Shown here: positions 17,115 to 64,000 of the stretch, in pieces
Layout of the letters: every line of letters begins with the position of its first letter
Position numbering within the stretch: position 1 is the first letter of the stretch
Source of the DNA: a virus
Taxonomy: Duplodnaviria; Heunggongvirae; Uroviricota; Caudoviricetes
DNA: 64,000 nt
Virus record (IMG/VR): IMGVR_UViG_3300047159_000064
Strand: one strand, 5' to 3'
The notes under the pieces: model-generated
What the model was told of the DNA's origin: nothing
The model's input: only the letters and a program-made list of their open reading frames with translations
Database searches by the model: none
Made by a program: the position numbers and the translations under genes

Positions 17115-17131
17115 CCTGCCGCCTCCTTGGG

Positions 17132-17729: not shown

Positions 17730-17785
17730 CATTATTATGCCGCGGAACGGCTGCTTGTAAACGGTTTTCCGAAGTTTTTTTTCGG
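17730..17785 (-). promoter_or_regulatory. early promoter box copy 13
   Basis: tgtaaacggttttccgaag with a cattattatg -10. Confidence 0.6.
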
Positions 17786-17830
17786 CGGCCCCAAGCGGTT
17801 AGTCGGCCTTTTCTATTTCTTTTTTTCTAG

Positions 17831-18046: not shown

Positions 18047-18069
18047 ATGCGGGCTCCTTTAAGCCTCAT

Positions 18070-18125
18070 GAAAATATCATATCGCGGAAAAGCGGGTTCG
18101 TAAACGGCTTTCCGAAGAAAATCCG
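18070..18125 (-). promoter_or_regulatory. early promoter box copy 14
   Basis: cgtaaacggctttccgaag with an atatcatatcg -10. Confidence 0.55.
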
Positions 18126-18197
18126 CCGAGCGTCCGACGGGCCAGTCGGGCGGATCCGTCATCCGGCCGGACGGAAACGGCCTAGTCGAAAAGCTCA

Positions 18198-18241
18198 TGC
18201 GCATAAGTATTATAACAATAATACTTATGCGCATGAGGGAT
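18198..18241. repeat. 44-bp perfect palindrome CTCATGCGCATAAGTATTAT-AACA-ATAATACTTATGCGCATGAG
   Basis: Arms are exact reverse complements; shares the core AAGTATTAT with the palindrome at 22186. Confidence 0.6.
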
Positions 18242-18276
18242 CCCATTAGTCGAATCTGAATGCAATGGGATGGCCC

Positions 18277-18726
18277 CTAATCTGCCTCTCCGGAGGGGTA
18301 AGTCGCCGACAGCAGGGCCAGAGCCTCGGAGGCGACGTCGAAATCCCCCAGGCCGCAGCAGTCCAGCCAGACCTTCAGCGTCCTGCCCCAGCACACGAGC
18401 CTGCGATCCGAATGCCCGCCGTTCTGGAACCTCTCGACCCTGGCCCCAGGCCAATCCCTGAACCTGGCGACCGTGTCGAGCTCCGAGTCTATGACTTTCT
18501 CCATGTCGTCCTTGTATTGGGTGTTGCCCGAGCCGAACTCCAGCGTCCCGCCTTTCCACGCGGCGATCAGCTGGTCTCCCATGGGGTCCTCGAAGAAGTC
18601 GACTTCCTGTCCTCTGTAGCTGAGGTGATCGGCGGGCTTTTCCGAAATCCCCCTGATTGCCGAAGAGGCCGAAATCTCCCTGATTCCGCCCTGCCCGGAA
18701 ACCGAAATCTCCCTGATTTCGCCCAT
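18277..18726 (-). CDS. hypothetical protein; N-terminal 30 codons are encoded by three tandem copies of the palindromic GAAATCTCCCTGATT motif (true start may be the internal Met near 18582)
   Basis: ORF track; MGEIREISVSGQGGIREISASSAIRGISEK comes from the repeats. Confidence 0.4.
   Translation of the reverse strand: MGEIREISVSGQGGIREISASSAIRGISEKPADHLSYRGQEVDFFEDPMGDQLIAAWKGGTLEFGSGNTQYKDDMEKVIDSELDTVARFRDWPGARVERFQNGGHSDRRLVCWGRTLKVWLDCCGLGDFDVASEALALLSATYPSGEAD
18640..18725. repeat. three tandem copies of the palindromic motif CGAAATC-YCCCT-GATTYCG
   Basis: ccgaaatccccctgattgccg / gccgaaatctccctgattccg / accgaaatctccctgatttcg. Confidence 0.6.
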
Positions 18727-18730
18727 CCGC

Positions 18731-21131
18731 CTAAGCCTCCAGCACCATGCTCTTCAGCTGGTCCGAGAAACGCTCGTTAGGCACGTCGTCTATGACGTAA
18801 TCGCTGAGATCCTTCTTCTCGCCGACTATCTTCGCCACCCGCTCGTCTATCGTGCCGGCGCAAGAGAGCACCACGACGTTCGCCGGCCTCTGATTGGTGA
18901 CCCTCCATATGCGATCCGTGGCCTGAGAGAACTCCGAGTACGTGTAAGGGGTGTCCAAGGCTATCATGTAGCTGGCCGCGTTGAGCGTTATGCCGGTCGA
19001 GCATTTGCCGAACGTGCCGATGAACGCCTGCTCCTTCGGGTCGGTCTGGAACCTCTCGACGTCGGCGGAGAACACGTCGTCCGGCGTATCTCCAGTGTTT
19101 ATCGAGCCTTTGACCTTGCCTCTCAGCATGTCCGCCAGCTCGTATATCGATTCTTTGAACGTGCCGAAAACGACTACTTTCTCGCCCTGTGACGCGAGCT
19201 CCTCGACGAGCTCGGCGCAGCGCTCCAGCTTGGTGGCAGGTATCTGCTGGGAAGTCAGTATGCTCGGGCAGGACGTGGCCTGCCTGAGCCTGGTCGTGAG
19301 GGCCAGCAGGTTCGCCGGCTTCAGATCTATCTTGTCGGCCTCTTCGCGGACGCCGTCGGCGATCGCGTCGTAGAAGCGCCTGTGCTCGTCGTCCATGTCG
19401 AGCGATTCGTAGGTCACCGTCTTAGGCGGCAGAGAGTCCCTGACCTGGTCGAGCGTCCTCCTGAGGCTGCAGGAGTCGAGCTCCTCCTTCAGCAGATCGA
19501 GGTTCTTGTATCCGACTATCTGGCTGTCGTTGAATCCGCCGAATTCGCAGTATTGCGACTTGAACATCGTCAGCGTCGATCTGTCGTTCTCCGTCCACGA
19601 CAGCGGGACGTACATCGAAATCGGGCTGTTGGTCAGAAGGGTGCCGGTGGCTGCGACTTCGAACGGGGCCTTCAGCTTGAGCAGATTGGTGCCCTGGGTC
19701 GATGACTTAGTCGCGCAGTTATGGACTAAAATGCCGTTCGCATAGAAATTATGGTTGCCCTCGACCGCGAGATCGTAAACTGGCTCTGCTGCTATTACTT
19801 TTTTAGATACTAACTTTGCCATTTTTATGCCAGCTCCCGCCGCCGCTTAAGCCCAGATACCTATTTAATGCGCGAATTTGATTGTATGGGATAAGATAGA
19901 TAAGTTCCAGATGCCTATTAGGGCAATTGTTTTTGTATTTGAGATAATCTCGCTTATAATCTTCGATCTTTACGCCATGAGCCGATATAAAAGCTTCCCA
20001 GTGTAACTTTTTTCTTTCCTTGCCGGAAATCTTTGCGGCGTCTTTCATCCTTTGTCTGTACTCTGGCGTTTTTCACAGCTCTGCTGAGCGCTCTTGCATT
20101 GCGGCTATGCCTTTAGCAATCTTTATATCATCGTCCGCAGTTAAATCTTTTGCCTTTACCCAGCCGCGGTTGTTGGTGTATATCTTGTGCGACGCCGTGC
20201 ATTTTAGCTTTATTGTTCTGTTATCGTCGATCAAGGTCAGCTCCAGAAGCGGCTCTCTCGGCTGCGATTCCGTTACGGACGAAATCTGCCGAAATTCGTT
20301 TTGCCCTGTTTTCTTATTGTAGGAAAGCACCTTAGGCAGAGCTTTTAATTGGCTGATTTCGCCGATAGTAAATTTTCCGGCGTCGGTCAATACTACAGAA
20401 TCTCCGGTAAGGCATTTATGGATTTCGTCGACCGCTATCATGCCGAATTTCGTCTCTGACTTCAGGAAGGCCGCGGTCACCGCGGGGGACCTGAGCGTCT
20501 CGACGTTCGTGATCACGAAAAACTCGGCGATCTCGCCTTTGAGCTCTTTGGCCCTCTCAGGCAGAGACGCGTAATGCACCCTGCCCTTCTTGCTTATCCT
20601 CTCGCCTAAGATCCTGCAGCTCTCGTTCGAGAACCTGGAGATCTCTTTCTTCCAGTTCTGCTTGACCGCGTTGACCCCGCAGACTATGAAGCAGTGCTCT
20701 ATGGCCCCTCTGCGCTTGAGGGCTTCGGCCAGTCAGATTATTTCGGCAGTCTTGCCCAGGCCCATCGAGTCGAGCAGAAGCCACTTGGGGTGTTTTAGCC
20801 CGAAGTCGACCGCTTCTATCTGATGCCTGAACGGCGGCTGCTTGAGGCCGTCTATCTCTTCCTGGGACAGCGGGCGGAATCCCCCTGATTCCGACTCGCC
20901 TTCCGGCCAATCCAGGAGATTCAGCCTCACCTGATCGATGAAAACGGCCGAGTCCAGCAATTGGGCCAGGCAGCTCGCCGGTATCTCTCAGATCCGGTCT
21001 TTCTTGTGGTAGTATCAGTTCGGCAGGGCCTTCAGCGCGGCGACCAAGGCCTCGCTGTACTCCGACCTGACCACGAAGCTGGAAAGCCCGCTGACTTTGC
21101 CCGGCGGGCTGACTTCCGTAATCTCTATCAT
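18731..21131 (-). CDS. SNF2-family helicase containing an intein (with HNH-like endonuclease) after motif II; 4 in-frame TGA codons (about 21015, 20988, 20733, 20073) and a +1 frame break at an A5 run near 19822-19850
   Basis: GLGKT Walker A; DEIHK then CLTGDS intein N-terminus; VYDLAVEGNHNFYANGILVHN-C intein C-terminus; ATGTLLTNSP motif III; QATDRIWRVTNQ motif VI; ORFs 20733-20960, 20073-20579 and 19803-20048 share one frame, separated only by TGA. Confidence 0.65.
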
Positions 21132-21240
21132 GGCCTAAAGCCTCCTAAGAATCCTCGACGCTAAAAAGCGCCCAAAGGCGAAATCTCCCCGATTCCGGCT
21201 CCTTCGCGGCGCGCGAAAACGAAATCTCCCCGATTCCGCC

Positions 21241-21564
21241 TTAGTCTCCCAGTATGGAGGAATAAGGGGTCGTGAAATCGAGCTCTTCGTCCTCCGGCTT
21301 CGTCTTGACGGTCAGAGTCGCCTCTACGACGAACGGCTTCCCGCAGCTCTCGCACGTGAAGTGCTCGACCAGGGTCGGCTCGTCGCCTTCCTTGTATTCC
21401 TCGTAGATGATCTTGCCGAGGGCGTCCTTGATGACGGACGACGGCTTGCCCAGGATCTCCCCCGGCATGAACACCTCCGTCGGGTGGTACTCGCAGTGGC
21501 AGTAAGGGCAGACCACCGTGGCCTTCTTCTGCTGATCGGCTTTCTGGCCGTTTGATGCTGGCAT
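21241..21564 (-). CDS. zinc-ribbon protein (CPYCHC...CESCG)
   Basis: ORF track; two Cys pairs. Confidence 0.5.
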   Translation of the reverse strand: MPASNGQKADQQKKATVVCPYCHCEYHPTEVFMPGEILGKPSSVIKDALGKIIYEEYKEGDEPTLVEHFTCESCGKPFVVEATLTVKTKPEDEELDFTTPYSSILGD

Positions 21565-21720
21565 AGATAAAGTCTCCTTCGGGCCCGCGCTTGGGCGGGG
21601 CTATGGCGCAATCGCCTCTGATATACTATACGGCTTTCGCCTGCGCGGTATGGCCCGAAATTTGGCTGAATTCAGACATTCGCCTAGGCCGGAAAAACGA
21701 GATCTCCCCGATTTCGGCCT

Positions 21721-21835
21721 CGCATGCGCGCGCACGCATATATACGCGCGCCCGCGCGCGCCTCTTGTCTGGATCTATATGATCCAGCGCTATACGCGCG
21801 CACGCACGCGCGCGCCTCTTGTCTGGATCTATAGG
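21721..21835. repeat. two direct repeats of about 50 bp containing alternating CG tracts (cgcgcgcnCGCGCGCGCCTCTTGTCTGGATCTATA) plus the GGATCTATATGATCC palindrome
   Basis: Visible duplication; (CG)n stretches have Z-DNA potential. Confidence 0.55.
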
Positions 21836-21949
21836 ACTGGAGTATTATAATACAGACATACTAAAGATAGTTAATAATAAGTCATACGCTAAAGCGTATG
21901 ACGGGGGACAGGCCCCCGGGCCGCCTGCTTCAGCTCAGCCCTTTCCCTT

Positions 21950-22110
21950 CAGTTTTTAATAATTTAATAAATCATTAATTTAATAAATCATTAAGTCATT
22001 AAATTATTAGTTTAATAAATCATTAAATTATTAAGTCATTAAATTATTAATTTATTAAGTTAATAAATTATTAAGTCATTAAATTATTAAATCATTAAAA
22101 ACGCGAAAAC
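21950..22110. repeat. AT-rich tandem iteron array (units TTAATAAATCATTAA and ATTATTAAGTCATTAAATTATT)
   Basis: Nearly pure A/T tandem repeats inside a GC-rich genome; candidate origin or DNA-unwinding element. Confidence 0.6.
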
Positions 22111-22185
22111 ATCAGCCGAAATCTGACTAATTAGCCAATCGCAAAGAAAAGGCCTTTTCGAGAGATCGCCGTTTTCGGATTTTAA

Positions 22186-22217
22186 GTATTATTATTATCT
22201 ATAATAATAATACTTAC
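22186..22217. repeat. 32-bp palindrome AAGTATTATTATTAT-CTA-TAATAATAATACTT
   Basis: Exact inverted repeat. Confidence 0.55.
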
Positions 22218-22275
22218 CCATTGTATCATACCGCCTTTCGGGGCCAAAGTAAACGTTTTTCCGAAGAAAATCTCC
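22218..22275 (-). promoter_or_regulatory. early promoter box copy 15 (TTTACT-17-TATGAT) pointing into the repeat/origin region
   Basis: agtaaacgtttttccgaagaaaatctcc with an attgtatcatacc -10. Confidence 0.55.
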
Positions 22276-26458: not shown

Positions 26459-26687
26459 CGACGTCTCCGTTTTCTATCATCGCGCCTAGCACGTCCAGAT
26501 CGTCCATGAAGATGTATCCTTCGACGGTGTCTCTGACGAGCACGTTGACTATGCCGAAGCATTTTGATATCTCTATCTGAACGTTTCCGTTTAGGCCCAG
26601 CGCGACCATGTAGGCGCCTTTTGACGCCATATGGTATTTCTCGGCGAAAGCCTTGTCGTCTATTTTGCTGTAGTTTATCCTAAGCAT
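26439..26687 (-). CDS. small hypothetical protein, paralog of 25930-26187
   Basis: ORF track. Confidence 0.5.
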   Translation of the reverse strand: MLRINYSKIDDKAFAEKYHMASKGAYMVALGLNGNVQIEISKCFGIVNVLVRDTVEGYIFMDDLDVLGAMIENGDVVVTGDR

Positions 26688-27048
26688 TCTGTTTTGTGGC
26701 CTCCCACAGTATCAGCAGTGAAATCGCTATCTGGGCGTAGTGCATCAGCTGATCTGCCATTAGGTTGGTCCTTCCGTCGTTTTTCGCCTTGTCTATGAAG
26801 AAGTGCGCCATGACGTTCACTGCGAACAGCAGAACCATCCACCAAGGCGAAGCGAAGCCGAGATACCATATGAACGGCATGAATACGCACAAGCCTCAGA
26901 TTAGGCAATGGCCTATGAGGACGAACGCTCAGCTCGTTTTGTCTTCTGCAGGTCAGCTGCTCTCTTTTTTGAACTTCGCCTGGAAATCGTTTTGAAAGAA
27001 GAAATCGCCTAACGCGTGGCCGCAAAAAGCCAGAACGCACACGGTCAT
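26680..27048 (-). CDS. Trp-rich membrane protein with 3 in-frame TGA codons (about 26953, 26929, 26896), all in one frame
   Basis: Manual translation: MTVCVLAFCGHALGDFFFQNDFQAKFKKESS*PAEDKTS*AFVLIGHCLI*GLCVFMPFIWYLGFASPWWMVLLFAVNVMAHFF...; the ORF track only gives its 3-prime 70 aa. Confidence 0.6.
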
Positions 27049-27058
27049 GAAATTCACG

Positions 27059-36821: not shown

Positions 36822-39800
36822 TTATTTCTCTCCCAGCCTGGCTTTAAGCTCTTCGACTTCTTTTTTAAGCTTTTGTATTTCGTAGATCTCTAAGGCGTGA
36901 AGGTCGGTGTAGTTAAGCGCATAGACGCTCTTGCCGTCAATGAAGTTTTTCGACACTATGCCGAAATCAGTCGGGTTAAGTCCTGCCGCGCTCATCGCGC
37001 TTTCGACGTCTTGGGCAACGAAGCCGAATCTAGTCTTGGCTCTGTTGTTTTTGAATCTGAATGACGCAGGCTTAAGCCCGTCGAATAAAGCGTCATATCC
37101 AGATAAGGCGTATTCTATGCCTGTTTTCAGCCTTCTATCAGATGTGTTAGATACCGAATCGGCGGTAAGCTCATTGACCCTTATGGCAGCTTTTTTGCTG
37201 TCTGTGCCGAAGCGTATGCCGTTTATCAGCGCGCCGTCAAGCGAAATTGTTTTTTCTGTCGCTGATATAAGCTGATAGTCTTTTGTTATGCTTATGGTGT
37301 CGAAGCTAATGCTGGCTACTCCAATTACTGTGCCGTTCGACGGTGGAGTTATGTCGCAGTATAGGCTTGTCGGCGTATAAACGTAATTGTTTAATAGCGC
37401 GCTATACGGCATATAGAAGACTTTTGTTTGAGCTGATGTCGCGGTGCTGTATGATGTGCCGGCCGATGTTGTTCCTGCTGCATATTTGTATGCGTAGATT
37501 ATCGTCATTTTTACAGCTATGTTTCCTGAAGTGTTTATTGTTCCGAAACCGAAGTTATCAGCGCCGAGGGCATTGCCGTTGTAGCTGTAGTCATTTAATG
37601 AATTTTGGCGCGTCGTGCTGCTGTCTTTTACATTCTTTATGCTGCCTATTGTTACTCTGTTGTTTACGCACTCATAACCAGCGATTGTCGGCGTCGTTAC
37701 GTAGATTAGTGATATTACATTATTAGTGGTAGAGACATAAGCAGAAATAGGTAAATCGCAGATTGTTGTGCTTGTATCGCTATTGCCAGCGATATTGGCG
37801 CCGGTTATGTTGGCGCGATTTATGTCAAGGCCTGTCATGAATTCTCCGCCGTCTAATGCCAAAGTTGATCCGCTGGCGGTCAGTATACCGTCCAACATTG
37901 TCAGTTTTGGCAAGGCATTTGTGACTGCGTAATCTAAGACATTGTGCATTTTCAGTGTAACAGAATCACCAAAAGTAACCTCAGTTGTAGGATCTCCTAC
38001 TGCAGGCTTTTTAGGCGCGACGATAAATCCGTTTTTTCCGCCTATTACGAGCGTGCCTGGAAGATATAAATCATTATCTTTTGATATGGCACCTTCGCCG
38101 CCTTGTATTGAAAAAAGGTAGTCTCTTGTATTTATGCTGTCTCAACTGCTTACTTTAACGAATACTTCATTTTCGCAATCCCATCTGTAGTAGCATCCAT
38201 CTGTGCTGTTTAAATAGCAAGCAGTGACTTTTTCTGTTATGTCTGTTCCAGTGCTATTTTTAAAAGTTGTGCCGTTTTGCTCCGGTTTGCTGCCGAATAA
38301 ATCGGTGCCAAATCATTCTCAGTCTTGCGTTGTCCCGCTTGATTCTACATTCTTAGCGGCTTGAGTTATGGTATGTGATACCAAATACGGAGCTATGTTT
38401 ATATTTCCTGTCTCAGTAAGCTGCGTAGAATAAACTCTTTGCGTCACTAAAAACCATTGATTGTCGTTTTCTAACGGTACGTTTTCTGACGGCAGGCCAA
38501 ATGATTCTTTTTTGTCCTTTACGTCGCCGCTGCTGTCTGTTTCTTGTATTAGTCCTATTCTGACCGAGCCGTTTTTCACGTCTAAATTGTTGATGTTGGC
38601 GTTGTTCGCGTAAAGGTTTCCTAAATTGTTCACGCCGAAATTATCGCCAGCCGCGAATACTAGGTTAGAAACTTTATTGTCGTTTATGCTGAGGTACTTT
38701 GTTCCGGTGCCGGTCGACATCAAAACGGCGCCGTTTGTGCTGCTGTTTAGCGTTATGGCGCTGTTGTCAGCCTTAGGAAGCGTATAGCCGTTTTGAAGTA
38801 TATTGGCGCCTATTTCGAAGCCGCCTATTCATTTGTTATTTTTTTTATCGAAGCTGGCGCCTATTTGTCCGTGTTCTGCTATTATGTTTCCGGTGATGTT
38901 GGCGTTGTTCGCGTAAAGGTTTCCTAAATTGTTCACGCCGAAATTATTGCCTGCGGCGAATACCAGGTTAGAAACGTTGTTGTCGTTTATGCTGAGGTAC
39001 TTTGTTCCGGTGCCTGTCGACATCAAAACGGCGCCGTTTGTGCTGCTGTTTAGCGTTATGGCGCTGTTGTCAGCCTTAGGAAGCGTATAGCCGTTTTGAA
39101 GCACGCTATCGCCTATTTCGAAGCCGCCAGCACCTGAGGAGTCAGCGCCTATTTGTCCGGATTTTGCCACTATTTTGCCAAATACACTGAGCCCTTCGCT
39201 GTTGGCAACCAGTATGTCTTTCTGAATCTGATCCCCATTTTCATCCGCTATTTTTGCATAGACGGTTCATTCGCTGGCGTCAAGGTTCCATCCGAACCCT
39301 GTCACGTCATTTTTTTTGTTCAGTTTTGCGTCTACCGCTGCGTTTGTGCTTTCTATGCTTGTGGCGTTGGCATCAGCCTTTTTATCCACCGTAGTTACTT
39401 CACTGCGTATGCTTTTAGCCGTTTGCTCTATTAGGCTGGTTATATTTTTGTTTTGATTGTCCTGCGAGGTGATTACCTGCTTGAATCTGTTGCCGTAGTC
39501 TCTGTCCATCTGCCCGAGGTCTTTGTCGAGCGTGCTGACTTTTGCCGTAAGGCTTGACAGCGAAAAATAAGGCGCCGTCGTATTAGGCGTGTCTTTGTCT
39601 AGGCTGCTGCTCATTTTCGTGTCGAACGGTATGGTCGCCGATTTGCTGGTCGCCGACGTTTCGACGTTTATCGTTCCTCTTGGGTCAGCTTTTTCTAATT
39701 CTGCGCCTAGGTAGAGCTTTCCTATCACGACGGGCAGCTCCATTAGGTTGTTTTCGAAAGCTACCCAGACCACGTCGCCGACTTTGTAGCCGTTGTAGCT

Positions 39801-39929
39801 TCCAGGCGTATTGGATATGGTCGCTACGCCGTTTATCTCATCGTTTCCCGCGGATTCGAAGAACGGCATCCTGACGGAGCAGGTGTTGCCGCTTAAGTCT
39901 ATAGAAGTTATCTGGCCTTTTGTAATCAT
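36822..39929 (-). CDS. tail fibre protein (about 1035 aa) with tandem repeats of about 165 aa and a C-terminal S74 intramolecular chaperone domain; about 6 in-frame TGA codons (about 39267, 38829, 38319, 38313, 38142)
   Basis: ORFs 39267-39929, 38829-39170, 38319-38723 and 36822-37949 share one frame and are separated only by TGA; C-terminus SDRRLKTGIEY...GFVAQDVE...LKKEVEELKARL. Confidence 0.65.
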
Positions 39930-39954
39930 TTTCTGTTTAAACCTGCTCGATTTT

Positions 39955-39977
39955 CATATAATTTAGCAGATATTGCC
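39955..39977 (-). promoter_or_regulatory. late promoter motif copy 2 (minus strand ATATCTGCTAAATTATATG), 26 nt before the fibre ATG
   Basis: catataatttagcagatattgcc. Confidence 0.5.
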
Positions 39978-40009
39978 AATAATAGATTTAATAAATTTAT
40001 TCGGCGCAT

Positions 40010-40042
40010 TAAAAAAGCCGACCACAACGGCCGGCTTTTAGT
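40010..40042. terminator. bidirectional terminator hairpin (A6...GCCG/CGGC...T4)
   Basis: aaaaaagccgaccacaacggccggctttta. Confidence 0.4.
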
Positions 40043-40053
40043 CTGTGTTCCTG

Positions 40054-40731
40054 CTATGACAGCTCGCTTATCGCGGATTCTAGCTCGCTTTTGAGCTCGG
40101 CTATGAACTGCTCTTTGGTGAATATGCGCCCTGTCTCTTCTATTATGCCGGTTATTCCGCGGCACAGCGCGTATTTTCCCGTCAGCCTTTTGAAGATGTC
40201 CTTCTCAGGCGAGTATTCCAGCGTTATTACCAGGTCTTCTGACAAAACGCCGTTTTCTAAGGCATACTCGTTGCCCATGAACTTTTTGTTCTCGTACAGC
40301 ACGTCGTTGCCTATTTTTTTAAGCTTCGATCCGTCTGCGCCTAATTTCACGAGCGTTGAGCAGATCGTGTCCGCCGCCATCGTTCTGGCCTTTTGCAGAT
40401 CGTCCGGCGTTCATGAAGCATCGATTTTTATGTGGGCCGTGACTGGCACGGAGTTTTTATTGACCAGTATGTTATATCCTGTTTTGAAGCTGGCTTCGTG
40501 TTTTATGTAGGGAAGGTTGCAGCTGCGCAAGCCGTCTGGCTCCGTCTTTATCAGCGTGTCCGATTTGAGCGGCCGATTCCATCAGAACGGCTCTTGGACA
40601 TCGCCTATGGCTATGACGTTTTCGCCCAGGAACTTGCCTGTGTTCCTTCATTCGAATTGGTTCTTCAGGACGTCGGGTATGACGCCTTTAGAAGGCGCGA
40701 CTTTCTCGACCGTTACTTTTATGTTCTTCAT
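40054..40731 (-). CDS. hypothetical structural protein (about 225 aa) with 3 in-frame TGA codons, including a TGA-TGG pair
   Basis: Single frame from ATG 40731 to TAG 40054: ...KNQFE*RNTGKF...QEPF*WNRPL...IDAS*TPDDLQKARTMAADTICSTLVKLGADGSK... (ORF 40054-40380 is its C-terminus). Confidence 0.6.
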
Positions 40732-40732
40732 C

Positions 40733-41170
40733 CTAGGCCTTCTTTATTTTCTTAGGGTCGCCGAATATGCCTGATTTCTTCAGCCAGTCGTATTGGTCTT
40801 TCAGCGTGTCGGCCTTTCGCGCGAAGCTCCCGCGCTCGACAAGGCGCGGTATCGTGTCGCCTATGCTGCCTTCTACGCAAGCCTGCAGCAGCGGGTAGTC
40901 GCCGTTCGGGTTAAGGCTGGCGAAATTGTTGACGTAGCTCAGCTTTTCGTCAATCCACGGCTGCGCTTCTTTCATCGCGCCGTCTTGATCGTAGTGCATG
41001 CGCTCCTCGTCTCCGATTATCGCGCTTATTTTGCCGTCGTAGAGCTTCAGCACCTCGTCTTGCGTCAGCGCGTTTTTATTAGCCGTTCTGTCAGCTTTGC
41101 TCGCATAGATGTCGTAATTGCCGTTGAGGTCTATCTTTACGTAATTTCCGTTAGGTAGTAAAAGTGCCAT
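40733..41170 (-). CDS. hypothetical protein (start MALLLPNGN with SD AAGGAG)
   Basis: ORF track (start trimmed to ATG). Confidence 0.5.
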   Translation of the reverse strand: MALLLPNGNYVKIDLNGNYDIYASKADRTANKNALTQDEVLKLYDGKISAIIGDEERMHYDQDGAMKEAQPWIDEKLSYVNNFASLNPNGDYPLLQACVEGSIGDTIPRLVERGSFARKADTLKDQYDWLKKSGIFGDPKKIKKA

Positions 41171-41180
41171 TTTCAGCTCC

Positions 41181-42416
41181 TTAGTAAAAGAATACAGCGC
41201 AACCATTCGCGCCAGATTGGCTTGATGTTACTGTTGTTGTGTTTTTGCTGTAAAAATCGCCGCCGCCGCCGCCATACAATGGGTTTGTAGCGGCTTGTAC
41301 GATATCTTGCGATATTTCTGCATATCCTCCATTGCCGAAAGAGTTTCCGCCAGGCACACAGAATGTAAAATTCGCGCCATCAGCGTCTTTTAGCTTAGTC
41401 GTATCAGCTGGTATGGCATTGAGTTGTTTATTGATTTTTACAGCATCATTTTTTCCGCAGAATAACGGCCGTATCGTAGTTTGCTGGCTGATGTTTATGT
41501 TAGTATCGCCCTCATTATAACTGGCGTCAGATCCTGTTCCTCCGCATATGTAAGCAGTTTTAATTAGATGACTGCTGTCATATATCGTTATTTCGCCGCC
41601 TGCGCCGCCGGCAGCAGAAAGGAGAGTACTCTTATTACTATCGTCATAATTTCCGCCTTTGCCACCGCTTCCGCCATGGACAACCGCTATGACTTTTTCT
41701 CAATCGCAGCTGTCGCCTAAAAATATAGCAGAGTCTTCACCATTAATACCATTACTGCCATGCTGAGTATGCGTGGTGTAGGTTGCATTGTTTACGCCGG
41801 CTCCGCCTTTTCCTAGTTTTATTGTGTACTCGTAGTGTTCTACGTCCAATACAGCGATGAATATTCCTCCGCCTCCGCCTCCGGCGCCGGGAAATAATTT
41901 ATTTCTGCTGTCTCCACAACCGTCTTTGTTGCATCCGTCAGTGTCGGCCTCTGCGCTTCCTCCGCCGCTTCCTCCGCCGCCTACAAGAACAAGGCTTATA
42001 TATTTAATATCATCATCAGTTGTTCCGAAGTTTGTTCTGCCAATAGTTACTTGTTTTGTATTTTTGTCTTTAGTTATAGTAAAAATAGTATTATTTGCTA
42101 TATATTCTATTGCTTTCGTTATCGTAGATCCCTTTAGCTTTATGCGGCTGCCGTCGGTATTATCTGAGCACACGACAGGAAAAGTGCCTTTTTCTACGCC
42201 ATAAATAGGCGCAGAGTTTCCATTTTCTGCCTTTTGAAAACATGGTATGGCCTTTTGTCTCGCTATGCCGTTTCCATTGGCTGGGCTTTGCAGCTTTGCA
42301 TCTGGCATGTCTGCGTCATACCCTATGGCATGCAAATCTAAAGATTCCTCGCCGCTGTGCAGCGGTTCAAGATCTTTAGCGAAAGCGTTTGTGTCATTGT
42401 AATTGTAGTTGGCCAT
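41181..42416 (-). CDS. Gly-rich fibre-like protein (about 410 aa) with 1 in-frame TGA at 41700; extends 170 codons beyond the track ORF to a TAA just before the next RBS
   Basis: After ...GDSCD-TGA the same frame stays open: EKVIAVVHGGSGGKGGNYDDSN...LYGGGGGDFYSKNTTTVTSSQSGANGCAVFFY then TAA. Confidence 0.6.
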
Positions 42417-42418
42417 GT

Positions 42419-44974
42419 TTACGCTCCTTTAAGCGCGGATACCTCCTGCTTGAGCGATTTTACTTCTTGGAGCAGAAGATAGACGAGTTTGCTTTCTTCT
42501 ATAGAAAGATAGCCGTTTTCGTCCTCATGCACGATTTCTGGGCATATCTTTATCAGGTCTTGGGCGATGCAGCCTATGTGCTTCGTATGCGTTTCGTCTG
42601 AGATGTATTCGAATTCTTTCACAGGCAGATCTAAGATGGATTTGTCGCAGGCATAGTCTCGCACATTGGTCTTTTTTCTGATATCGGATGTCGCCGTGAA
42701 TGACTGGGCGGTGACAGTTCCGCTAGTATTGAGCGTTATGACAGTCGTGCCTGTAGCGTTGCTTACGCTTAAACCGCTTAACGCGGTTATCATGCCTTTT
42801 ACCGACAAGCTGTCCTTAAGCTCTACTGCTTTGCTTATCGCTAATCCTGTCGTGCTAAGGCTTAATAACGCTGTCGTACCGTCAGCCGCGTTTATCGACA
42901 GGCTATTCTCGTTTATCGTCATGCCTGTGTTGCTGGCTGAGACGAATGTTTTGCTGTCTTTGCTGAGGATTAAGCTTTGCCCCGTTATGCTTTCTCCGGC
43001 CGTCAGCGTCTTTGCTTTTATGGCGCCTGTGGCCGTCAGGCCGGTGTCTACTGTGACTTTATTGAATGTTGCTGCGCCTGTTTCATCAATGCTGCAGCCT
43101 TTGCTCATGGTAAACTTCGAGACGCCGGTTAATTCTGCATTGGATAATTTTACGGCTTTGTTTATCGCGAAAACGTTGTTTGTTTTGTCATAGACTATGG
43201 ATGCGGCGGCATCGTCGCTGCCGAAATAATAGCCGTTCGGCGCGATGACTTTATCGTCTGTTGTTATCTTTAATTTGCTGTATGTTCCATTTCTTGTGAC
43301 GCTGAAATCGCTGTTGTGCGCGCCGAATTCGCCATCGGCATCTAAGTTTCCTTTTATGCTGGCGGCTTCTGCCTCTATGGTCAGCGCTTTTATTTTCGTT
43401 GTGCCGTCTTTCGATAAAGTTGCTCCGGCTTCTGTCGCGCTGAAAACAGCGACGGCCGGATATGCCGCGCCTGATTTATTCGTCAAAGTCGCGCTGCCGT
43501 TCGCCGTCAGCTTGCCTTTGGCGGCTATGTCGCCGTCGGCGGAGATGTCTTTTGTAGTTTTTATTCCGGCTTCATCGGCTTCGAAGCTGGTGACTCCGTC
43601 TTTGGCGACGCTGAATCCTGCAGCTGAGGTTATGCTTCCGGTCGCATCTACGGATTTCGCAGATATGCCGGCTTCCGCTTTCAGCGCTTTGGCGAAGTCT
43701 ATGCCATCGGCTGAGAATTCGGCTATCGGATCTTTAGACGCCGTTTGAATTTTGAAATCAAGCGTCGCTGTGACGCCTGTTTCGTCGGCGCCGATATTAG
43801 GCGCTGCAAAGGTGCCATCGGCCGTCAGCGCGCCTGCGATATGCGTTTTGCCCGCGATGTCTACGTCGCCTGTTTTGCTGGCTGAGAATACAGCCTTTCC
43901 TTTTTCGCCGTATACGGTTATGGCGCCGTATTCTCCGGCCGTCGCGCTGCCTAGCGTAAGCGTGTTGTCGCTCGCCCCAGAGGCTTTTATCGCGCCTTTG
44001 ACGTTGAGCGCGGTATTGACGTCGAAGCCGTCTGCTTTAAGCGCGAGCAGATTAGATCTGTCGTTCTCGCTTGTTCCGTTTCCTACCAGGAACAGCGCCG
44101 CGGCATCTATTAGGTTATAGCGTCCGAAGACCGCTTGGTTTTTGGCTTCGGCTTTCAGATACTCGCCGAAAGCGAATGAGTTTTCGGCGTCAGTTTGAGA
44201 ATAGTAGCCGCCTACGAACGAGTTTTTGCCGTTCTTTGTAGTTGTAGTCGTTTCGCCGCTTGATGCGGAATTTTCTCCGTTGGCAGTAGTTCCTTTGCCG
44301 ATGCCGAATGAATAATCGCCTATCGCTCTGCTGCTGTAGCTGACGTCCGCGATTGTCGCCCCGAGCATTCTCAGCGCGTAAGCGCCTTTGTCGGTGGCAA
44401 GCGCCATGTCGATCGGCATAGCGTTCCAATTCAGCGCGCCAGCGGCTGTAGAGAACGGCTGCAGCGTATAGCTTGCCGTTATTTTGCCTACGTCGTTTTG
44501 GCTGACTAAGCAAAGGCCGGCGAATACGTAGCTTGAGCCTGAAGCCACGTCCAGGTATTGAACCGCGTCGTCGATCCATGAGGCTAGCATCTCTGTTTTT
44601 CTGTTTGGATCTTCCGGCACCGTTGCTGCGGTCGTCATGTCGACGGTGCGCAGCCTTATGGCCAGCAGCCTAGGCGTGCCGTCTGCATCGAAGAAATCGG
44701 CGCTATCAGCGTTATAAAGCTCGAAATAATAGCCGCCGATTACCGCTTTTAGCGTTTTGGTAGCAGCGTCGAACGAAATAACGTAGCTCTCTCTGCTTTT
44801 GCCGAGCTTCGGTCTGGCGTTGACAAAATTATACTCGGTGCTGCTTCTGGCTTCCGGGTCGAATGTTTTGTTGTTTGTTTTGTTGCCTCTGTAAGCGCAA
44901 GGGAATACCTTGACGTCCGCGCTGCTTAGCAGTTTTATCGTGGCGTTTGAGTAAGTGTGATCTGTCAATGTCAT
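42419..44974 (-). CDS. tail fibre protein with C-terminal S74 intramolecular chaperone domain (851 aa, no TGA)
   Basis: C-terminus RKKTNVRDY...IGCIAQDLIKICPEIV...LLLQEVKSLKQEVSALKGA; Ala/Gly/Thr-rich body. Confidence 0.6.
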   Translation of the reverse strand: MTLTDHTYSNATIKLLSSADVKVFPCAYRGNKTNNKTFDPEARSSTEYNFVNARPKLGKSRESYVISFDAATKTLKAVIGGYYFELYNADSADFFDADGTPRLLAIRLRTVDMTTAATVPEDPNRKTEMLASWIDDAVQYLDVASGSSYVFAGLCLVSQNDVGKITASYTLQPFSTAAGALNWNAMPIDMALATDKGAYALRMLGATIADVSYSSRAIGDYSFGIGKGTTANGENSASSGETTTTTKNGKNSFVGGYYSQTDAENSFAFGEYLKAEAKNQAVFGRYNLIDAAALFLVGNGTSENDRSNLLALKADGFDVNTALNVKGAIKASGASDNTLTLGSATAGEYGAITVYGEKGKAVFSASKTGDVDIAGKTHIAGALTADGTFAAPNIGADETGVTATLDFKIQTASKDPIAEFSADGIDFAKALKAEAGISAKSVDATGSITSAAGFSVAKDGVTSFEADEAGIKTTKDISADGDIAAKGKLTANGSATLTNKSGAAYPAVAVFSATEAGATLSKDGTTKIKALTIEAEAASIKGNLDADGEFGAHNSDFSVTRNGTYSKLKITTDDKVIAPNGYYFGSDDAAASIVYDKTNNVFAINKAVKLSNAELTGVSKFTMSKGCSIDETGAATFNKVTVDTGLTATGAIKAKTLTAGESITGQSLILSKDSKTFVSASNTGMTINENSLSINAADGTTALLSLSTTGLAISKAVELKDSLSVKGMITALSGLSVSNATGTTVITLNTSGTVTAQSFTATSDIRKKTNVRDYACDKSILDLPVKEFEYISDETHTKHIGCIAQDLIKICPEIVHEDENGYLSIEESKLVYLLLQEVKSLKQEVSALKGA

Positions 44975-44994
44975 AAAGTTGTCTCCTTATTATT

Positions 44995-45516
44995 TTAATC
45001 TACGTTCTCGACCGTCATTTTCCAGTCTACTATCGTAGTCATGTTTCCGCCTGATTCTGGTATCGTGAATTGCTCTGATTCCGTCAGCGAGACATAGGCG
45101 AGCAGGTCGTTCTGCAGGCTTGATATCATCGGCGGATACAGGCATAGTTTTTTTATCGTGGCGCCCTGCTTCATGTACAAGAACGGTATTCTGAAGTGGA
45201 ATGTCACGCTTGTCTCTTTGTCTTTTACTTCGACGGTAGGCGCTGAATCGTATATGATGGCGGACGACGCGGGATAGTTGTAGAAATTATCGGTGTCGTC
45301 TCTGAACAGGACTATTTTGTTCGGCCGTTCGTTTTTGGCCGACGCTCAGTTGCCCTGCAGGCAGGAAGAAAAGAAATTGAATAGCTTTTTTGAGCCGGAG
45401 TTGCAGTAGCTGTTTGCCGCTATGAGCCTGCCGTTGTCAAGGAAGCTGACCGTCACTTTGCCTTGGTACAGCATGCCGTTATGATTGCTAAGCTCTTTTG
45501 TTTTTTCGTTGTCCAT
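44995..45516 (-). CDS. hypothetical structural protein (about 173 aa) with 1 in-frame TGA (about 45346)
   Basis: MDNEKTKELSNHNGMLYQGKVTVSFLDNGRLIAANSYCNSGSKKLFNFFSSCLQGN*ASAKNERPNKIVLFRDD... continuous with ORF 44995-45207. Confidence 0.5.
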
Positions 45517-51165: not shown

Positions 51166-51476
51166 TTTAGTAGGTAGTGACGGAGTCGTCTCCTGCTATT
51201 CTCGTCATGCTGAGCGTCGTTCTGTAGCCGCTCTCGTTTATGACGTCTTGCTGCTGCGTCACGAGGTAAAGTCCAGACGATATGTGCTTTCTTCCTCCTG
51301 GGAATATGACGTTGAGCCTGACGTAGTTCATCAGTATCGCCGGTCTCAGCAGAGCCTTGGACCGTTATCGTCGCCTTTATGGGGAATTTGGTGACTTTTG
51401 TCCACCAGGTGATGTCAGACGGCCTGGTGATGAAGTTGTCGTTCTTCGAGGTTATCGTAGGCGCCCAAACGTCCTC

Positions 51477-52469
51477 TCATTGGCCTTTGCCGTTTATTCG
51501 CTGCACGTATTGGTCTTGAACCAGCTTGTCGTTGTATTCGTACAGCAGCGAGTAGTTCTCGTCGTCGACGACGGAGAAGCTGGTGACGATCGTTCCGGTG
51601 TTGCCGAAGCCTATGTCTATCTCGAAAGCGTCTGATTTGTTGGTTTTATACGAGACGCGCTCGACTCTGAAATAGGCGCCTTTTATGTCTTGATCCGCCA
51701 GCGTTTTCTCGTCGTATATCGTGTCGTCGTGCATGGTCAGCACGTAGATGTCGGAGCTTGAGTTCTGCAGCGTCGTGAAGCCTGCGGGAAGCATGCAGCT
51801 GACGAGATAGGTAACGTAGTCTATCGCCGAGATGTTCCTTTTGGCGTTGAGCTGAACGTATTTGTCGTCTCCGGCAATCAGATAATCCATGTTGTTGGCG
51901 TTCATGCCGCTGAACAGCGTCTGAAGGCCGTACTTGCCGTTTCTCAGCAGCTTCTTTATTTCGTCGCTCGGCTTTTTCACGCCGCCTTGGAACGTCCAGC
52001 TTCCCGCCGAGCTGAGCGAAGCGCTAGACACCGCGTATACGGTGTAGTTTATGACGCCGCCTTGCAGCGAGAAGCTTGAGGTGACCTTGGTTATCAGCGC
52101 CTCTTCGTTTTTGTAGACGTACGTAGGCATGCTCATGTCGCCGTAGCTGAAGATTATCTTTCTGGTGGCGCTGACGCTCGACAGCACCTTTTCAAAGAAG
52201 TTAGGGTCGTCGGTCTGCCTTACGGGGTAGCTGAGCGAAAGCGTGTATTGGTTTATCTGGCCGTTTATCTTTATTATCGACAGCGACTGCACGAAATTAG
52301 GATACTGGACATGATAAGCGGTATAATAAAAACCTTGGCTGTCTTTGGCCGTTTTCTCTGTTTTGCTGAATACGCCGAATGTGTATTCGCCGATCGTGAC
52401 TTTTATCCACGGAGCCTGGACTCTGGCGCTCGAGGACAGCAGCGATCTTCTTTCGTCGCTGAATGCCAT
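51477..52469 (-). CDS. baseplate protein (330 aa); ends at TGA and is followed in frame by about 50 protein-like codons (EDVWAPTITSKNDNFITRPSDITWWTKVTKFPIKATITVQGSAETGDT), then a frame switch into a 54-codon ORF ending near 51168
   Basis: ORF track plus manual translation of 51168-51476. Confidence 0.45.
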   Translation of the reverse strand: MAFSDERRSLLSSSARVQAPWIKVTIGEYTFGVFSKTEKTAKDSQGFYYTAYHVQYPNFVQSLSIIKINGQINQYTLSLSYPVRQTDDPNFFEKVLSSVSATRKIIFSYGDMSMPTYVYKNEEALITKVTSSFSLQGGVINYTVYAVSSASLSSAGSWTFQGGVKKPSDEIKKLLRNGKYGLQTLFSGMNANNMDYLIAGDDKYVQLNAKRNISAIDYVTYLVSCMLPAGFTTLQNSSSDIYVLTMHDDTIYDEKTLADQDIKGAYFRVERVSYKTNKSDAFEIDIGFGNTGTIVTSFSVVDDENYSLLYEYNDKLVQDQYVQRINGKGQ

Positions 52470-62589: not shown

Positions 62590-64000
62590 TTATGGCGTCG
62601 GCCTTCCGTTTTTGCCGTCGAAGAAAGCCTTGGCAAGGCCTTTGGCGGCCGTGAAGCTCAGCGTCATGCCGAGCTGCGTCACTTTGTTGTTGAGCTTGTC
62701 CATCATCTTTATGAAGTCGTCGTCGATGACAGGGGCCGCGATTGATCCGTAGGTTTTGCGGATTTCGTCTCCTTGCTTGCCTGGGAATCTCAGAGACAGC
62801 CAGTACAGCGCCGTCGTGGCGTCTTTTTTGTTTGTTATCAGCTTGAGCAGCTCGTCTGATGCCGCGTCGTCCCATGGCATATGCGCTTCTGCCTGCCCTT
62901 CGAATCCGACGCAGGCTATGTATCATCTGTTTATGTCTTCCAGGTCGTTGAGCTTCAACGCCTCAGCAGAATCCGGCAGATCGTCGGCTTTGTTGCCTGC
63001 CGCGTCTAGCTTGCCGTACAAAAAGCCTTCCGTTACCTTGTCTTTAGAGCATTTGTAGATATTATCGGCTATCGTCTTCTTAAGCCCTGTCTCTATGGCT
63101 GGGTTTATGGAGCTTAGCTTTGATTCGGCGCTGTAATATATCGTGCGCTGCCATTTAAGGTAGTCTTTTATGTCGTCGGCGCTTTTTCTGTACAGGTCTT
63201 TGCAGAATATGGGATGCGTTTCTCCTAACGGGCCTTTGCCAGCGATGTCAGCCAGGCTCAGTCCTTCTTCGTTGGCCGTGGCGTCGTGCAGCGCGGTATA
63301 GGCGCTGGCTGAGATATCGAAAGCGATGAGGTACTTTTTCAGGAACCCTATGAACGGATTGGTGTCTTCAGTGAAGCCTAGCACGGTGCATTCTTGCTCG
63401 AACGGCATGCTGATCGCTTTTATTCTGCCTAATGCTTTCGGCCATACGGCGTTGAAATATTCGTCTCAGAATGCGTCCTTGTCTGCAGCGTTTTTGTATT
63501 TTTTGCCTCAATCGGTCGAAGCTATCTGCGCTTTTTCAGCCGCGTCTGCCTCATGCGTGTCGCCGGTGCTCTTGGCGACGCTATGCACTACGGCCGCCCA
63601 TTTCTCGTTGAACTTAGCCAGCTGTCCGTTGAAAGAGCCAGCCAGCGTTTTCGCGTTAGCTGTTTTTGTCGTGATGGCGGTTTTTAGCGCCAGCATTGAT
63701 CTATGAAGCGCATCAAGGTCTTCTTTGAATCCTGATTCTGCGGCGCCGCCTTGGCTTTCTAGCCTGCCGAACGCGCTTTTGTTCTTCGCCGCGTACGCTC
63801 TCGCCAAAGCGGGAACTTCGTTAAGCAGGTTTTTGACGCTTTCGATCGTGCCGTTTTTCTCGCCTTCGCCTACTGTTCCGTTGAATGACGTTTCTTCCAG
63901 CAGATTTTGTATCCTATCGACAGATTCTTTTATTTTTGCGATTGTCTTCTTTGACATATCGTCGCTTTCTATTTGTTTTCTTAAAGCGTCGAAAGCTATG
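62590..64000 (-). CDS. hypothetical structural protein, partial (continues beyond window end), with 3 in-frame TGA codons (about 63508, 63466, 62923); merges ORFs 63508-63957, 62923-63408 and 62590-62880
   Basis: All three ORFs share one frame: ...QIASTD*GKKYKNAADKDAF*DEYFNAVWPKALGRIKAISMPFEQ...LEDINR*YIACVGFEGQAEAHMPWDD...; no stop before 64000. Confidence 0.55.

What the first reader, a model, noticed from the sequence alone, without database searches (positions are those of the whole stretch)
36822..45516. In-frame TGA codons in late/structural genes: candidate stop-codon recoding, most likely TGA to Trp
At least 9 genes are split by the standard-code ORF track solely at TGA codons while keeping one reading frame and protein-like sequence on both sides. 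These are the tail fibre 36822-39929 (about 6 TGA), 40054-40731 (3 TGA), 41181-42416 (1 TGA, with a 170-codon Gly-rich extension ending at TAA just before the next RBS), 44995-45516 (1), 62590-64000 (3), the membrane protein 26680-27048 (3), SNF2 18731-21131 (4) and probably 51477-52469. No such interruption is TAA or TAG. In 27000-64000 every confidently annotated gene end is TAA or TAG (about 35 genes), and the only TGA ends (51477-52469 here; 24622 and 25930 near the region boundary) are ambiguous or backed by an immediate TAG. Early genes (1-17000) use TGA as a genuine stop at least 9 times (ATGA overlaps with junk after). Contexts favour Trp: tga-tgg gives PF-WW-NRP, plus AFWDEYFNAVW, SWAFVLIGHCLIWGLC and NWYYHK. 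This pattern matches phages that switch on suppressor-tRNA-mediated recoding for late genes. No suppressor tRNA or RF gene was recognised in this window.
Basis: partly seen in the sequence, partly recalled or inferred. Interest (0 to 1): 0.95.

Follow-up and report, generated by a model that had tools for sequence, protein, structure and literature searches.

The report
Phage reads TGA as tryptophan
This is part of a roughly 200-kb gut phage in which the stop codon TGA encodes tryptophan in some virion and other non-early genes but still ends early genes, a real but already described kind of phage code change.

Summary
All genes lie on the minus strand. Twenty in-frame TGA codons sit inside nine genes: tail fibre, four other virion-module genes, a baseplate gene, a Gly-rich protein, a DUF3307 membrane protein and an SNF2 helicase. 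No gene is interrupted by TAA or TAG. The TGAs are identical in more than ten independent assemblies, so they are not sequencing errors.

TGA means Trp. In two AT-rich relatives, 21 of 27 TGAs align to window Trp. Four Trp positions toggle TGA/TGG between strains. DUF3307 homologues have Trp opposite two of that gene's TGAs.

The left 18 kb carries 13 conserved sigma70-type promoters, 80 TGG, no in-frame TGA and 7 TGA gene ends. The virion block has about 34 TAA/TAG ends and none clearly TGA. This matches the published code-4 phages of Borges et al.

The decoding agent was not found. About 111 kb of the genome was examined. It includes a 27-tRNA array that holds no tRNA(UCA), and no RF1 or TrpRS gene. 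The array runs off the available DNA.

Verdict: a new member of a known kind, with sparse and strain-polymorphic recoding.

The parts
36822..39929 (-). Tail fibre gene of 1035 codons. It has an OB-fold-like N-terminus, a 2 x 101-aa repeat and a C-terminal Peptidase_S74 chaperone domain. In-frame TGAs at 39269, 38831, 38321, 38315 and 38144; it also has 4 TGG.
   Evidence: TGA 39269 is also TGA in relative L002. All TGAs are kept in L013/L017/L019. In strain L013 the variable middle segment differs, yet the 1059-codon frame stays open. Two window TGG positions are TGA there.
40054..40731 (-). 225-codon gene with TGAs at 40650, 40584 and 40413 and only 1 TGG. It gives a weak LplA-B_cat match.
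   Evidence: The TGAs are identical in up to 7 other assemblies (7 for 40650, 6 for 40584 and 40413). One JGI gene call gives the full 225 aa (L019).
41181..42416 (-). Glycine-rich tail-fibre-like protein of 411 codons, with a TGA at 41702.
   Evidence: Pfam Gly_rich_2 matches residues 134-410, across the TGA at residue 239 (profile positions 11-224 of 226). phrog_6202 tail fibre match. TGA kept in 8 assemblies.
44995..45516 (-). 173-codon gene with a TGA at 45348.
   Evidence: Strain L017 (ENA ERZ27239222, 95% identical) has TGG at this codon.
51167..52469 (-). Baseplate-module gene, 433 aa in other strains, with a TGA at 51479. The window carries a private 1-nt insertion near 51354 that shifts the frame.
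   Evidence: TGA 51479 is TGA in relatives L001 and L002, and the alignment runs on. It is TGG in strain L037. The extra T is absent from 10 of 10 other assemblies.
62590..64000 (-). Virion-module gene cut by the window edge, with TGAs at 63510, 63468 and 62925. The full gene is about 600 codons with a fourth TGA off-window.
   Evidence: 63510 aligns to W and 63468 to TGA in L001. The same TGAs are in L008. The upstream extension is seen in L021.
26680..27057 (-). DUF3307 membrane protein with TGAs at 26955, 26931 and 26898, and 4 TGG.
   Evidence: Pfam DUF3307 and phrog_2470 (E = 1e-22) span all three TGAs. Homologues have W in 4 of 4 opposite 26898, and W or Y opposite 26931. TGAs kept in L042/L043.
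20073..21131 (-). SNF2 helicase N-extein plus the N-terminal intein half. TGAs at 21017, 20990 and 20735 are inside. TGA 20075 ends it, or is read on into an 81-codon in-frame ORF that ends at 19803.
   Evidence: The spliced exteins align to SNF2 structure 1z63 across TGA 20735 and across the intein junction. TGAs are identical in up to 10 assemblies.
18731..19822 (-). C-terminal intein half (35 aa ending HN|C) plus the SNF2 C-extein, in another frame. It has no TGA.
   Evidence: (Intein_splicing, SNF2-rel_dom, Helicase_C).
1..17761 (-). Early block of 34 small genes with 80 TGG and no in-frame TGA. TGA is the gene end at 15092, 14829, 14578, 11481, 10975, 6267 and 2360. Several of these have a Shine-Dalgarno site and an ATG at the stop (for example TGATCATGG).
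308..22253 (-). Fourteen copies of TTTAC[AT]-N16-17-[CT]AT[AG]AT. They start at 336, 1949, 2815, 3165, 6946, 10951, 12263, 12661, 13175, 13492, 15949, 16759, 17761 and 22253. These are sigma70/sigmaA-type early promoters.
   Evidence: 14 found, 0.05 expected, all on the coding strand, none above 22253; 25 promoter-like sites in 1-20000 against 9.7 expected; no excess in 36-56 kb.

Best explanation
The window is 64 kb of a roughly 200-kb T4-like contractile-tailed phage from anaerobic animal-gut communities. In this phage UGA is decoded as tryptophan (genetic code 4) in a subset of genes. These are virion and tail-fibre genes, a small membrane protein and an SNF2 helicase. In the promoter-dense early block, UGA is still the gene end.

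The likely logic is the one proposed for alternatively coded phages. Early genes are transcribed from host-type promoters and translated in the host's standard code. Later, a phage-supplied UGA decoder makes UGA readable, perhaps helped by changes to termination. Only then can proteins with in-frame UGA be completed.

Shown here: TGA lies inside genes, it stands for Trp, it is a real stop in early genes, and it is real in the DNA. Inferred: the time switch, the standard-code host, and the decoder. The decoder was not found in the 56% of the genome I could read.

Recoding is sparse (20 TGA against 106 TGG) and drifts between strains. AT-rich relatives use TGA far more.
For: Coding through TGA:
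- Frames and coding score continue past the TGAs.
- Domains span TGAs.
- The tail-fibre frame is kept through a swapped segment.

Trp identity:
- TGAs in L001/L002 align to window W 21 times, to window TGA 4 times and to other residues 6 times. Window TGAs align to W once and to TGA 4 times.
- TGG replaces TGA at 45348 in L017 and at 51479 in L037.
- Two window TGG codons are TGA in L013.
- DUF3307 homologues have W opposite 26898 and W or Y opposite 26931.

Not errors: the TGAs are identical in JGI, ENA and Logan assemblies from many samples.

Dual use of TGA:
- 0 in-frame TGA among 80 Trp codons, and 7 TGA stops, in the early block.
- 14 TGA against 86 TGG, and 0-1 TGA stops, in the virion block.
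- Conserved host-type promoters occur only at or below 22253.

Phage identity: sheath, baseplate hub and wedge, gp19, Gp23 capsid protein and S77 protease; contigs of 199,817 to 211,949 bp.

Published precedent: bioRxiv 10.1101/2021.08.26.457843.
Against: No tRNA(UCA), RF1 or TrpRS was found:
- None in the window.
- None in 10 kb to the right.
- None in 37.5 kb to the left, which includes 27 tRNAs.

The SNF2 gene with three TGAs lies downstream of an early-type promoter at 22253. The split is therefore not cleanly early versus late.

Timing is inferred from gene function and promoters, not measured. The host is unknown.
Confidence: 0.85

Rival explanations
1. The host itself uses code 4 (UGA = Trp everywhere), as in Mycoplasma and Spiroplasma. 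The phage would then simply share its host's code and there would be no switch.
For: No suppressor tRNA was found in 111 kb. Some NrdD-bearing relatives are binned in 'Bacilli' genome bins, but such binning of phage contigs is unreliable.
Against: Seven early genes end at TGA. Several have a Shine-Dalgarno site and an ATG placed at the stop. Coding score moves to another frame there. Reading on would add 10 to 184 non-coding-looking codons across the next genes. Early genes use TGG 80 times and TGA never. The genome is 51% G+C.
Confidence: 0.07
2. UGA is read not by a dedicated tRNA(UCA) but by the phage's own tRNA-Trp(CCA). That tRNA has a U11:A24 pair in its D stem, like the Hirsh UGA suppressor. 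It may act together with weakened RF2 action. This is a variant of the main mechanism.
For: The phage tRNA array holds tRNA-Trp(CCA) at L117:21477-21550 with D stem G10-C25, U11-A24, U12-G23, C13-G22. G24A in E. coli tRNA-Trp lets it read both UGG and UGA (PMC11805395). No UCA tRNA is among the 27 tRNAs seen. Sparse TGA use would suit an imperfect decoder.
Against: The array is cut at the end of the available DNA, so a tRNA(UCA) may lie just beyond it. From memory, A24 is the normal state of tRNA-Trp in some Gram-positive bacteria, so it may carry no special meaning. Five TGAs in one tail-fibre gene need efficient decoding.
Confidence: 0.12
3. TGA encodes glycine (code 25), as in phages of Absconditabacteria and Gracilibacteria.
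For: This rival was considered for three reasons. In the tail-fibre repeat, the TGA-containing copy lines up loosely with Gly in the other copy. The SNF2 site after GLGKT is a small residue in distant homologues. One NrdD relative sits in an Absconditabacterales bin.
Against: No TGA of either genome aligns to Gly in the L001/L002 comparison, where 21 TGAs of the relatives align to window W. All four strain toggles are TGA/TGG. DUF3307 homologues have W.
Confidence: 0.01
4. The TGAs are true stops. On this view the genes are fragmented into separate small proteins or are pseudogenes, or the TGAs are sequencing errors, or they are sites of rare read-through or selenocysteine.
For: Standard-code gene callers do split these genes. 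The window does carry two private indels.
Against: The same TGAs appear in more than ten assemblies. Single protein domains span them. Most fragments lack start codons and ribosome-binding sites after the TGA. There are no TAA/TAG interruptions. The TGAs align to Trp, not Cys or Sec. Five TGAs in one essential fibre gene rule out inefficient read-through.
Confidence: 0.01

Closest known systems
Code-4 (TGA to Trp) alternatively coded gut phages: the Agate, Jade and Sapphire clades of Borges et al. (bioRxiv 10.1101/2021.08.26.457843, later Nature Microbiology 2022)
   Same: It is a large gut phage. In-frame TGA aligns to Trp. TGA is concentrated in structural genes and in a small transmembrane protein. 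TGA is avoided as a stop in recoded modules. Other modules use the standard code. TGA/TGG differences occur between close relatives. A suppressor tRNA is often undetected: it was found in only 35% of code-4 genomes.
   Different: Clade membership was not tested, because no terminase tree was made. Recoding here is sparser: about 9 of 82 genes, against clade means of 26-71%. The genome is G+C-balanced at 51%. An SNF2 helicase gene is recoded. No tRNA(UCA), RF1 or TrpRS has been seen so far.
TAG to Gln (code 15) crAss-like and Lak phages (Ivanova et al. 2014, from memory; Peters et al. 2022, PMC9523058)
   Same: The logic is the same. A stop codon is reassigned in late genes of phages whose hosts use the standard code. 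For code 15 this has been validated by metaproteomics.
   Different: The codon and the amino acid differ. IMG/VR phages that share this phage's short-arm tRNA-Leu or its NrdD (L180, L197) carry tRNA(CUA), and L197 looks TAG-recoded.
Mycoplasma/Spiroplasma code 4, and phages that share it
   Same: UGA = Trp.
   Different: In those organisms UGA is never a stop and the genomes are AT-rich. Here UGA ends early genes and the genome is 51% G+C.
Hirsh suppressor tRNA-Trp(CCA) G24A
   Same: The phage tRNA-Trp(CCA) has A24 paired with U11.
   Different: There is no functional evidence. A24 may simply be the ancestral state of the donor lineage.

Membership tests
Stop-codon-recoded (code 4) phage of the Borges et al. 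type | In-frame TGA inside genes whose homologues are uninterrupted. | tested here: met
Stop-codon-recoded (code 4) phage of the Borges et al. type | TGA positions align to tryptophan. | tested here: met
   21 of 27 TGAs in relatives align to W. Four TGA/TGG toggles occur between strains. DUF3307 homologues have W.
Stop-codon-recoded (code 4) phage of the Borges et al. type | Recoding is concentrated in structural or lysis genes and absent from genes translated in the host code. TGA is depleted as a stop in recoded modules. | tested here: met
   Fisher p = 4e-5 and p = 0.005-0.025; early promoters. Exception: SNF2 and DUF3307 are also recoded.
Stop-codon-recoded (code 4) phage of the Borges et al. 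type | Phage-encoded suppressor tRNA with anticodon UCA. | tested here: inconclusive
   None in the window. None in 47 kb of flanks, which include 27 tRNAs. About 44% of the genome is unseen and the array is cut at the locus end.
Stop-codon-recoded (code 4) phage of the Borges et al. type | Phage RF1 and/or TrpRS. This is optional; it was seen in two Jade genomes. | tested here: inconclusive
   No such Pfam hit among the called genes of the loci. The genome is incomplete.
Stop-codon-recoded (code 4) phage of the Borges et al. type | The host uses the standard code. | not testable with these tools
   Inferred only, from TGA stops with coupled starts and sigma70/sigmaA-type promoters. NrdD is nearest to Clostridia.
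Phage of a natively code-4 host (Mollicutes type) | TGA never terminates genes. | tested here: not met
   Seven early genes end at TGA and the coding frame switches there.
Code 25 phage (TGA = Gly) | TGA aligns to glycine. | tested here: not met
   No Gly is found opposite TGA.
T4-like contractile-tailed phage (morphogenesis module) | Gp23-type capsid protein, S77 prohead protease, sheath, gp19 tube, and baseplate hub and wedge. | tested here: met
   The capsid protein is only about 30% identical to the nearest GenBank phages.

The most novel reading that the evidence does not exclude
The phage has no dedicated opal-suppressor tRNA. Instead UGA would be read by its own Hirsh-like tRNA-Trp(CCA, U11:A24), made in quantity from the 27-plus tRNA array that sits next to a tRNA-repair gene cluster. 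Sparse, strain-variable TGA codons would then act as a tunable brake on tail-fibre, membrane-protein and helicase production, not as a full code change.
Probability: 0.12. Interest if true: 0.7.

Novelty: new member of a known kind. Interest (0 to 1): 0.45.

Why it matters
The practical point is annotation. Standard-code annotation of this widespread gut phage cuts at least nine genes into fragments, and public gene calls already do so. Re-annotation with code 4 is needed.

The scientific point is that this is a clean natural test case for the 'code switch as timer' idea. One genome holds a promoter-marked early block where TGA stops. It also holds later genes where TGA is Trp. Only about 16% of Trp codons outside the early block are recoded, and TGA/TGG polymorphism among circulating strains is ongoing. 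AT-rich relatives sit much further along the same path.

If the complete genome proves to lack a tRNA(UCA), the question of how UGA is read becomes open and testable.

Tried and rejected
- Megablast of 36-46 kb against GenBank phages: no match.
- An exact 33-mer in IMG/VR: no match.
- Exact-protein look-ups for the 243-aa and 851-aa genes failed, probably because of start or strain differences.
- A word-indexed homologue search with the X-masked DUF3307 protein found nothing. I used the 71-aa C-terminal fragment instead.
- The metagenome scan gave only relatives at 39-49% identity, with no tRNAs.
- An IMG/VR scan with the 834-aa protein found nothing.

Ideas rejected or left uninformative:
- NrdD as a host marker. 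Most hits are 100-260 kb contigs binned into genome bins of many phyla, probably mis-binned phages. The 80 IMG/VR NrdD loci hold no tRNA(UCA).
- The odd tRNA L117:17483-17558, with a 6-nt anticodon loop CUCAAC, as the opal suppressor. Its D arm, variable loop and acceptor match short-arm phage 'tRNA-Leu(CAA)' genes whose loop is CUCAAAC.
- The glycine reading.
- The T4 late-promoter motif TATAAATA is not enriched. No other motif upstream of late genes appeared beyond the ribosome-binding site.
- The ilvD/integrase junction on the 113-kb contig as a clue to the host code. It is a truncated gene at a G+C break, probably a chimeric assembly, and it has no Trp codons to read.
- Distant SNF2 structures are uninformative about the residue at TGA 20735; they have Ala there.
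Full report
**What is in the window.** The sequence is 51% G+C with a strong A/T skew. Nearly all genes are on the minus strand. The one exception is a RyR-domain gene at 22891-23550.

Protein-family scans identify these genes:
- a contractile tail sheath (59816-61405)
- a gp19-type tube
- a baseplate hub and a baseplate wedge
- tail fibres with Peptidase_S74 ends
- a Gly_rich_2 protein
- anaerobic ribonucleotide reductase NrdD with its activase
- a Band_7 protein
- a DUF3307 membrane protein
- an SNF2 helicase

Exact-protein look-ups find the same phage, at 95-100% DNA identity, in many JGI, ENA and Logan assemblies. These include contigs of 113, 200, 201 and 212 kb. DNA just right of the window encodes an S77 prohead protease and a Gp23-type major capsid protein. 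So this is a T4-like phage of about 200 kb. Its capsid protein is only about 30% identical to any GenBank phage. Relatives come from animal-gut samples.

**Checking the observation.** They contain 20 in-frame TGAs in nine genes. A codon-usage score trained on long TGA-free genes stays positive in the same frame beyond these TGAs. A gene model that may stop or continue at every TGA prefers to continue in six of the nine genes. The total score rises and nine fragments merge. The Gly-rich gene scores poorly by codon usage, but a single Pfam domain covers both sides of its TGA. The same holds for the membrane protein. No gene is interrupted by TAA or TAG. Neighbouring same-frame genes separated by TAA or TAG are also separate genes in relatives.

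**The TGAs are real.** Every TGA that other assemblies cover is TGA there too, apart from the TGG cases described below. These assemblies come from different samples and pipelines.

The window itself is not perfect. A private 1-nt insertion near 51354 and a private 2-nt insertion near 48740 break two genes. These genes are intact in 9-10 other assemblies.

**Which amino acid.** I compared TAA/TAG-delimited ORFs with two AT-rich IMG/VR relatives, L001 and L002. They are 31% G+C and their sheath is about 45% identical. Their many TGAs fall opposite window Trp 21 times, opposite window TGA 4 times, and opposite Tyr, Phe, Thr, Ser or Asn 6 times in all. They never fall opposite Gly. Window TGAs fall opposite Trp once and opposite TGA four times.

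Among close strains, TGA and TGG alternate at four Trp positions:
- 45348 (TGG in L017)
- 51479 (TGG in L037)
- two tail-fibre positions that are TGG in the window and TGA in L013

No other substitution was seen at a TGA site. Distant DUF3307 homologues have Trp in 4 of 4 opposite TGA 26898, and Trp or Tyr opposite 26931. TGA therefore means Trp. I considered Gly because of a loose repeat alignment and an SNF2 motif, and rejected it.

**Two regimes in one genome.** The motif TTTAC[AT]-N16-17-[CT]AT[AG]AT occurs 14 times, against 0.05 expected by chance. It is always on the coding strand. Thirteen copies lie at or below 17761 and one at 22253. The virion block shows no excess of promoter-like sites.

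| Block | Genes | TGG | In-frame TGA | TGA gene ends |
|---|---|---|---|---|
| Left (1-17.7 kb), promoter-rich | 34 small, mostly ORFan | 80 | 0 | 7 of 33 |
| Middle (17.7-27 kb) | 12 | 20 | 6 | 3 |
| Virion (27-64 kb) | 36 | 86 | 14 | 1 doubtful (49-aa ORF); 34 TAA/TAG |

In the left block, several TGA ends have a Shine-Dalgarno site and an ATG at the stop, and the coding frame switches there. In the middle block, one TGA end is a TGA-TAG tandem. Fisher tests give p = 4e-5 for sense use and p = 0.005-0.025 for stop use.

This is the pattern described for code-4 phages by Borges et al.. Those authors also report a strongly recoded tail protein and a strongly recoded small transmembrane protein. 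The parallel here is the tail fibre (5 TGA, 4 TGG), its neighbour (3 TGA, 1 TGG) and the DUF3307 protein (3 TGA, 4 TGG).

The split is not strictly early versus late. The SNF2 gene carries three TGAs and lies downstream of the promoter at 22253.

**The search for the decoder.** The window has no tRNA by ARAGORN and no Rfam family hit. I walked along the genome through exact-protein look-ups.
- Ten kb to the right has no tRNA.
- To the left come small early genes, then HNH, HD and Tad8 genes.
- Next is a tRNA-repair set: a Thg1-like gene, an Rnl2-like RNA ligase, and a kinase-phosphatase-Rnl1 fusion.
- Then comes a DNA ligase, and finally a tRNA array.

On the 199,817-bp contig the array holds 25 tRNAs by ARAGORN, plus Gly(UCC) and Gly(GCC) found by Rfam. 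None has anticodon UCA. The array runs off the end of the DNA I could fetch.

One tRNA has a 6-nt anticodon loop, CUCAAC. It looked like a damaged UCA tRNA. However, its D arm, variable loop and acceptor match short-arm phage tRNA-Leu(CAA) genes whose loop is CUCAAAC. I do not count it as a suppressor.

The array does include tRNA-Trp(CCA) with a U11:A24 pair. That is the state created by the Hirsh G24A mutation, which lets tRNA-Trp read UGA. It is a possible alternative decoder, but it may be only ancestral.

No RF1, RF2 or TrpRS domain appears among the called genes of the loci examined. About 111 of about 200 kb has been read. Borges et al. found suppressor tRNAs in only 35% of code-4 genomes.

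**Host.** No direct evidence exists. Canonical -35/-10 promoters suggest a standard-code Gram-positive anaerobe, possibly Clostridia. So do real TGA stops, an anaerobic NrdD nearest to Clostridia sequences, and distant capsid similarity to Listeria and Bacillus phages. A natively code-4 host is unlikely because early genes end at TGA.

**Verdict.** The thing is a new, sparsely recoded member of the known class of alternatively coded gut phages. The mechanism of UGA decoding is the one open point.

Noticed in passing
window 18731-21131 (minus strand): The SNF2 helicase is a fractured gene with a split intein inserted after the DEIHK motif. The N part runs ...DEIHK|CLTGDSVVLT... The C part starts MAKLVSKKVIAAEPVYDLAVEGNHNFYANGILVHN|CATKSS in another frame and overlaps the end of an 81-codon ORF. 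The same 168 + 81 + 363 aa layout is found in 10 assemblies. The spliced exteins align to SNF2 structures across the junction.
   Followed up: partly
window ~51354 and ~48740: The window has two private small insertions, +1 nt and +2 nt. They break a 433-aa baseplate gene and a 1473-aa gene (seen here as 634 + 834 aa). Both genes are intact in 9-10 other assemblies. The cause is either assembly errors or a defective strain.
   Followed up: yes
window 308-22253, minus strand: Fourteen near-identical sigma70/sigmaA-type promoters (TTTACA-N17-TATAAT class) lie upstream of small genes. Only 0.05 are expected by chance, and none lies above 22.3 kb.
   Followed up: yes
window 38129-39178: The tail fibre holds a 303-nt x 2 tandem repeat (38592-39178). 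Next to it, a segment at about 38129-38534 is replaced by different sequence in other strains, while the reading frame is preserved.
   Followed up: partly
L117 (JGI 3300051656 Ga0527076_0061, contig 116191-138143), about 15-37 kb beyond the window's left end: An array of at least 27 tRNAs lies beside a tRNA-repair gene set: a Thg1-like gene, an Rnl2-like ligase, and a 737-aa kinase-phosphatase-Rnl1 fusion. It includes tRNA-Trp(CCA) with U11:A24, a tRNA with a 6-nt anticodon loop (17483-17558), and a YrlA/Y-RNA-like tRNA-like element (16575-16655, 39.5 bits, below threshold).
   Followed up: partly
L180, L182, L178, L184, L186, L187 (IMG/VR): A family of phage tRNAs with anticodon CAA or UAA has a short variable arm, unlike bacterial tRNA-Leu. 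They share the D arm TAATCCAACTGGCAGAGAT with the odd tRNA of this phage.
   Followed up: no
L180 and L197 (IMG/VR): Other IMG/VR phages, found through the shared tRNA D arm (L180) and the NrdD search (L197), carry a tRNA with anticodon CUA (amber suppressor). L197 gains ORF length when TAG is recoded. Both TAG and TGA recoding therefore occur among these phages.
   Followed up: no
L042 19100-21092 (JGI 3300059061 Ga0574372_00519, 113 kb): This contig joins the phage early region to 35% G+C DNA. That DNA carries a truncated ilvD and an integrase-like gene. It is probably a chimeric assembly and not a prophage junction.
   Followed up: partly
window 22000-24600: A strain-variable island has reversed skew. 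It holds the only plus-strand gene, a RyR-domain protein at 22891-23550. Most indels between strains fall here and near 16.8 kb.
   Followed up: no
window 25930-25935: Gene 25930-26187 ends with a tandem TGA-TAG. It would therefore terminate under either code.
   Followed up: no
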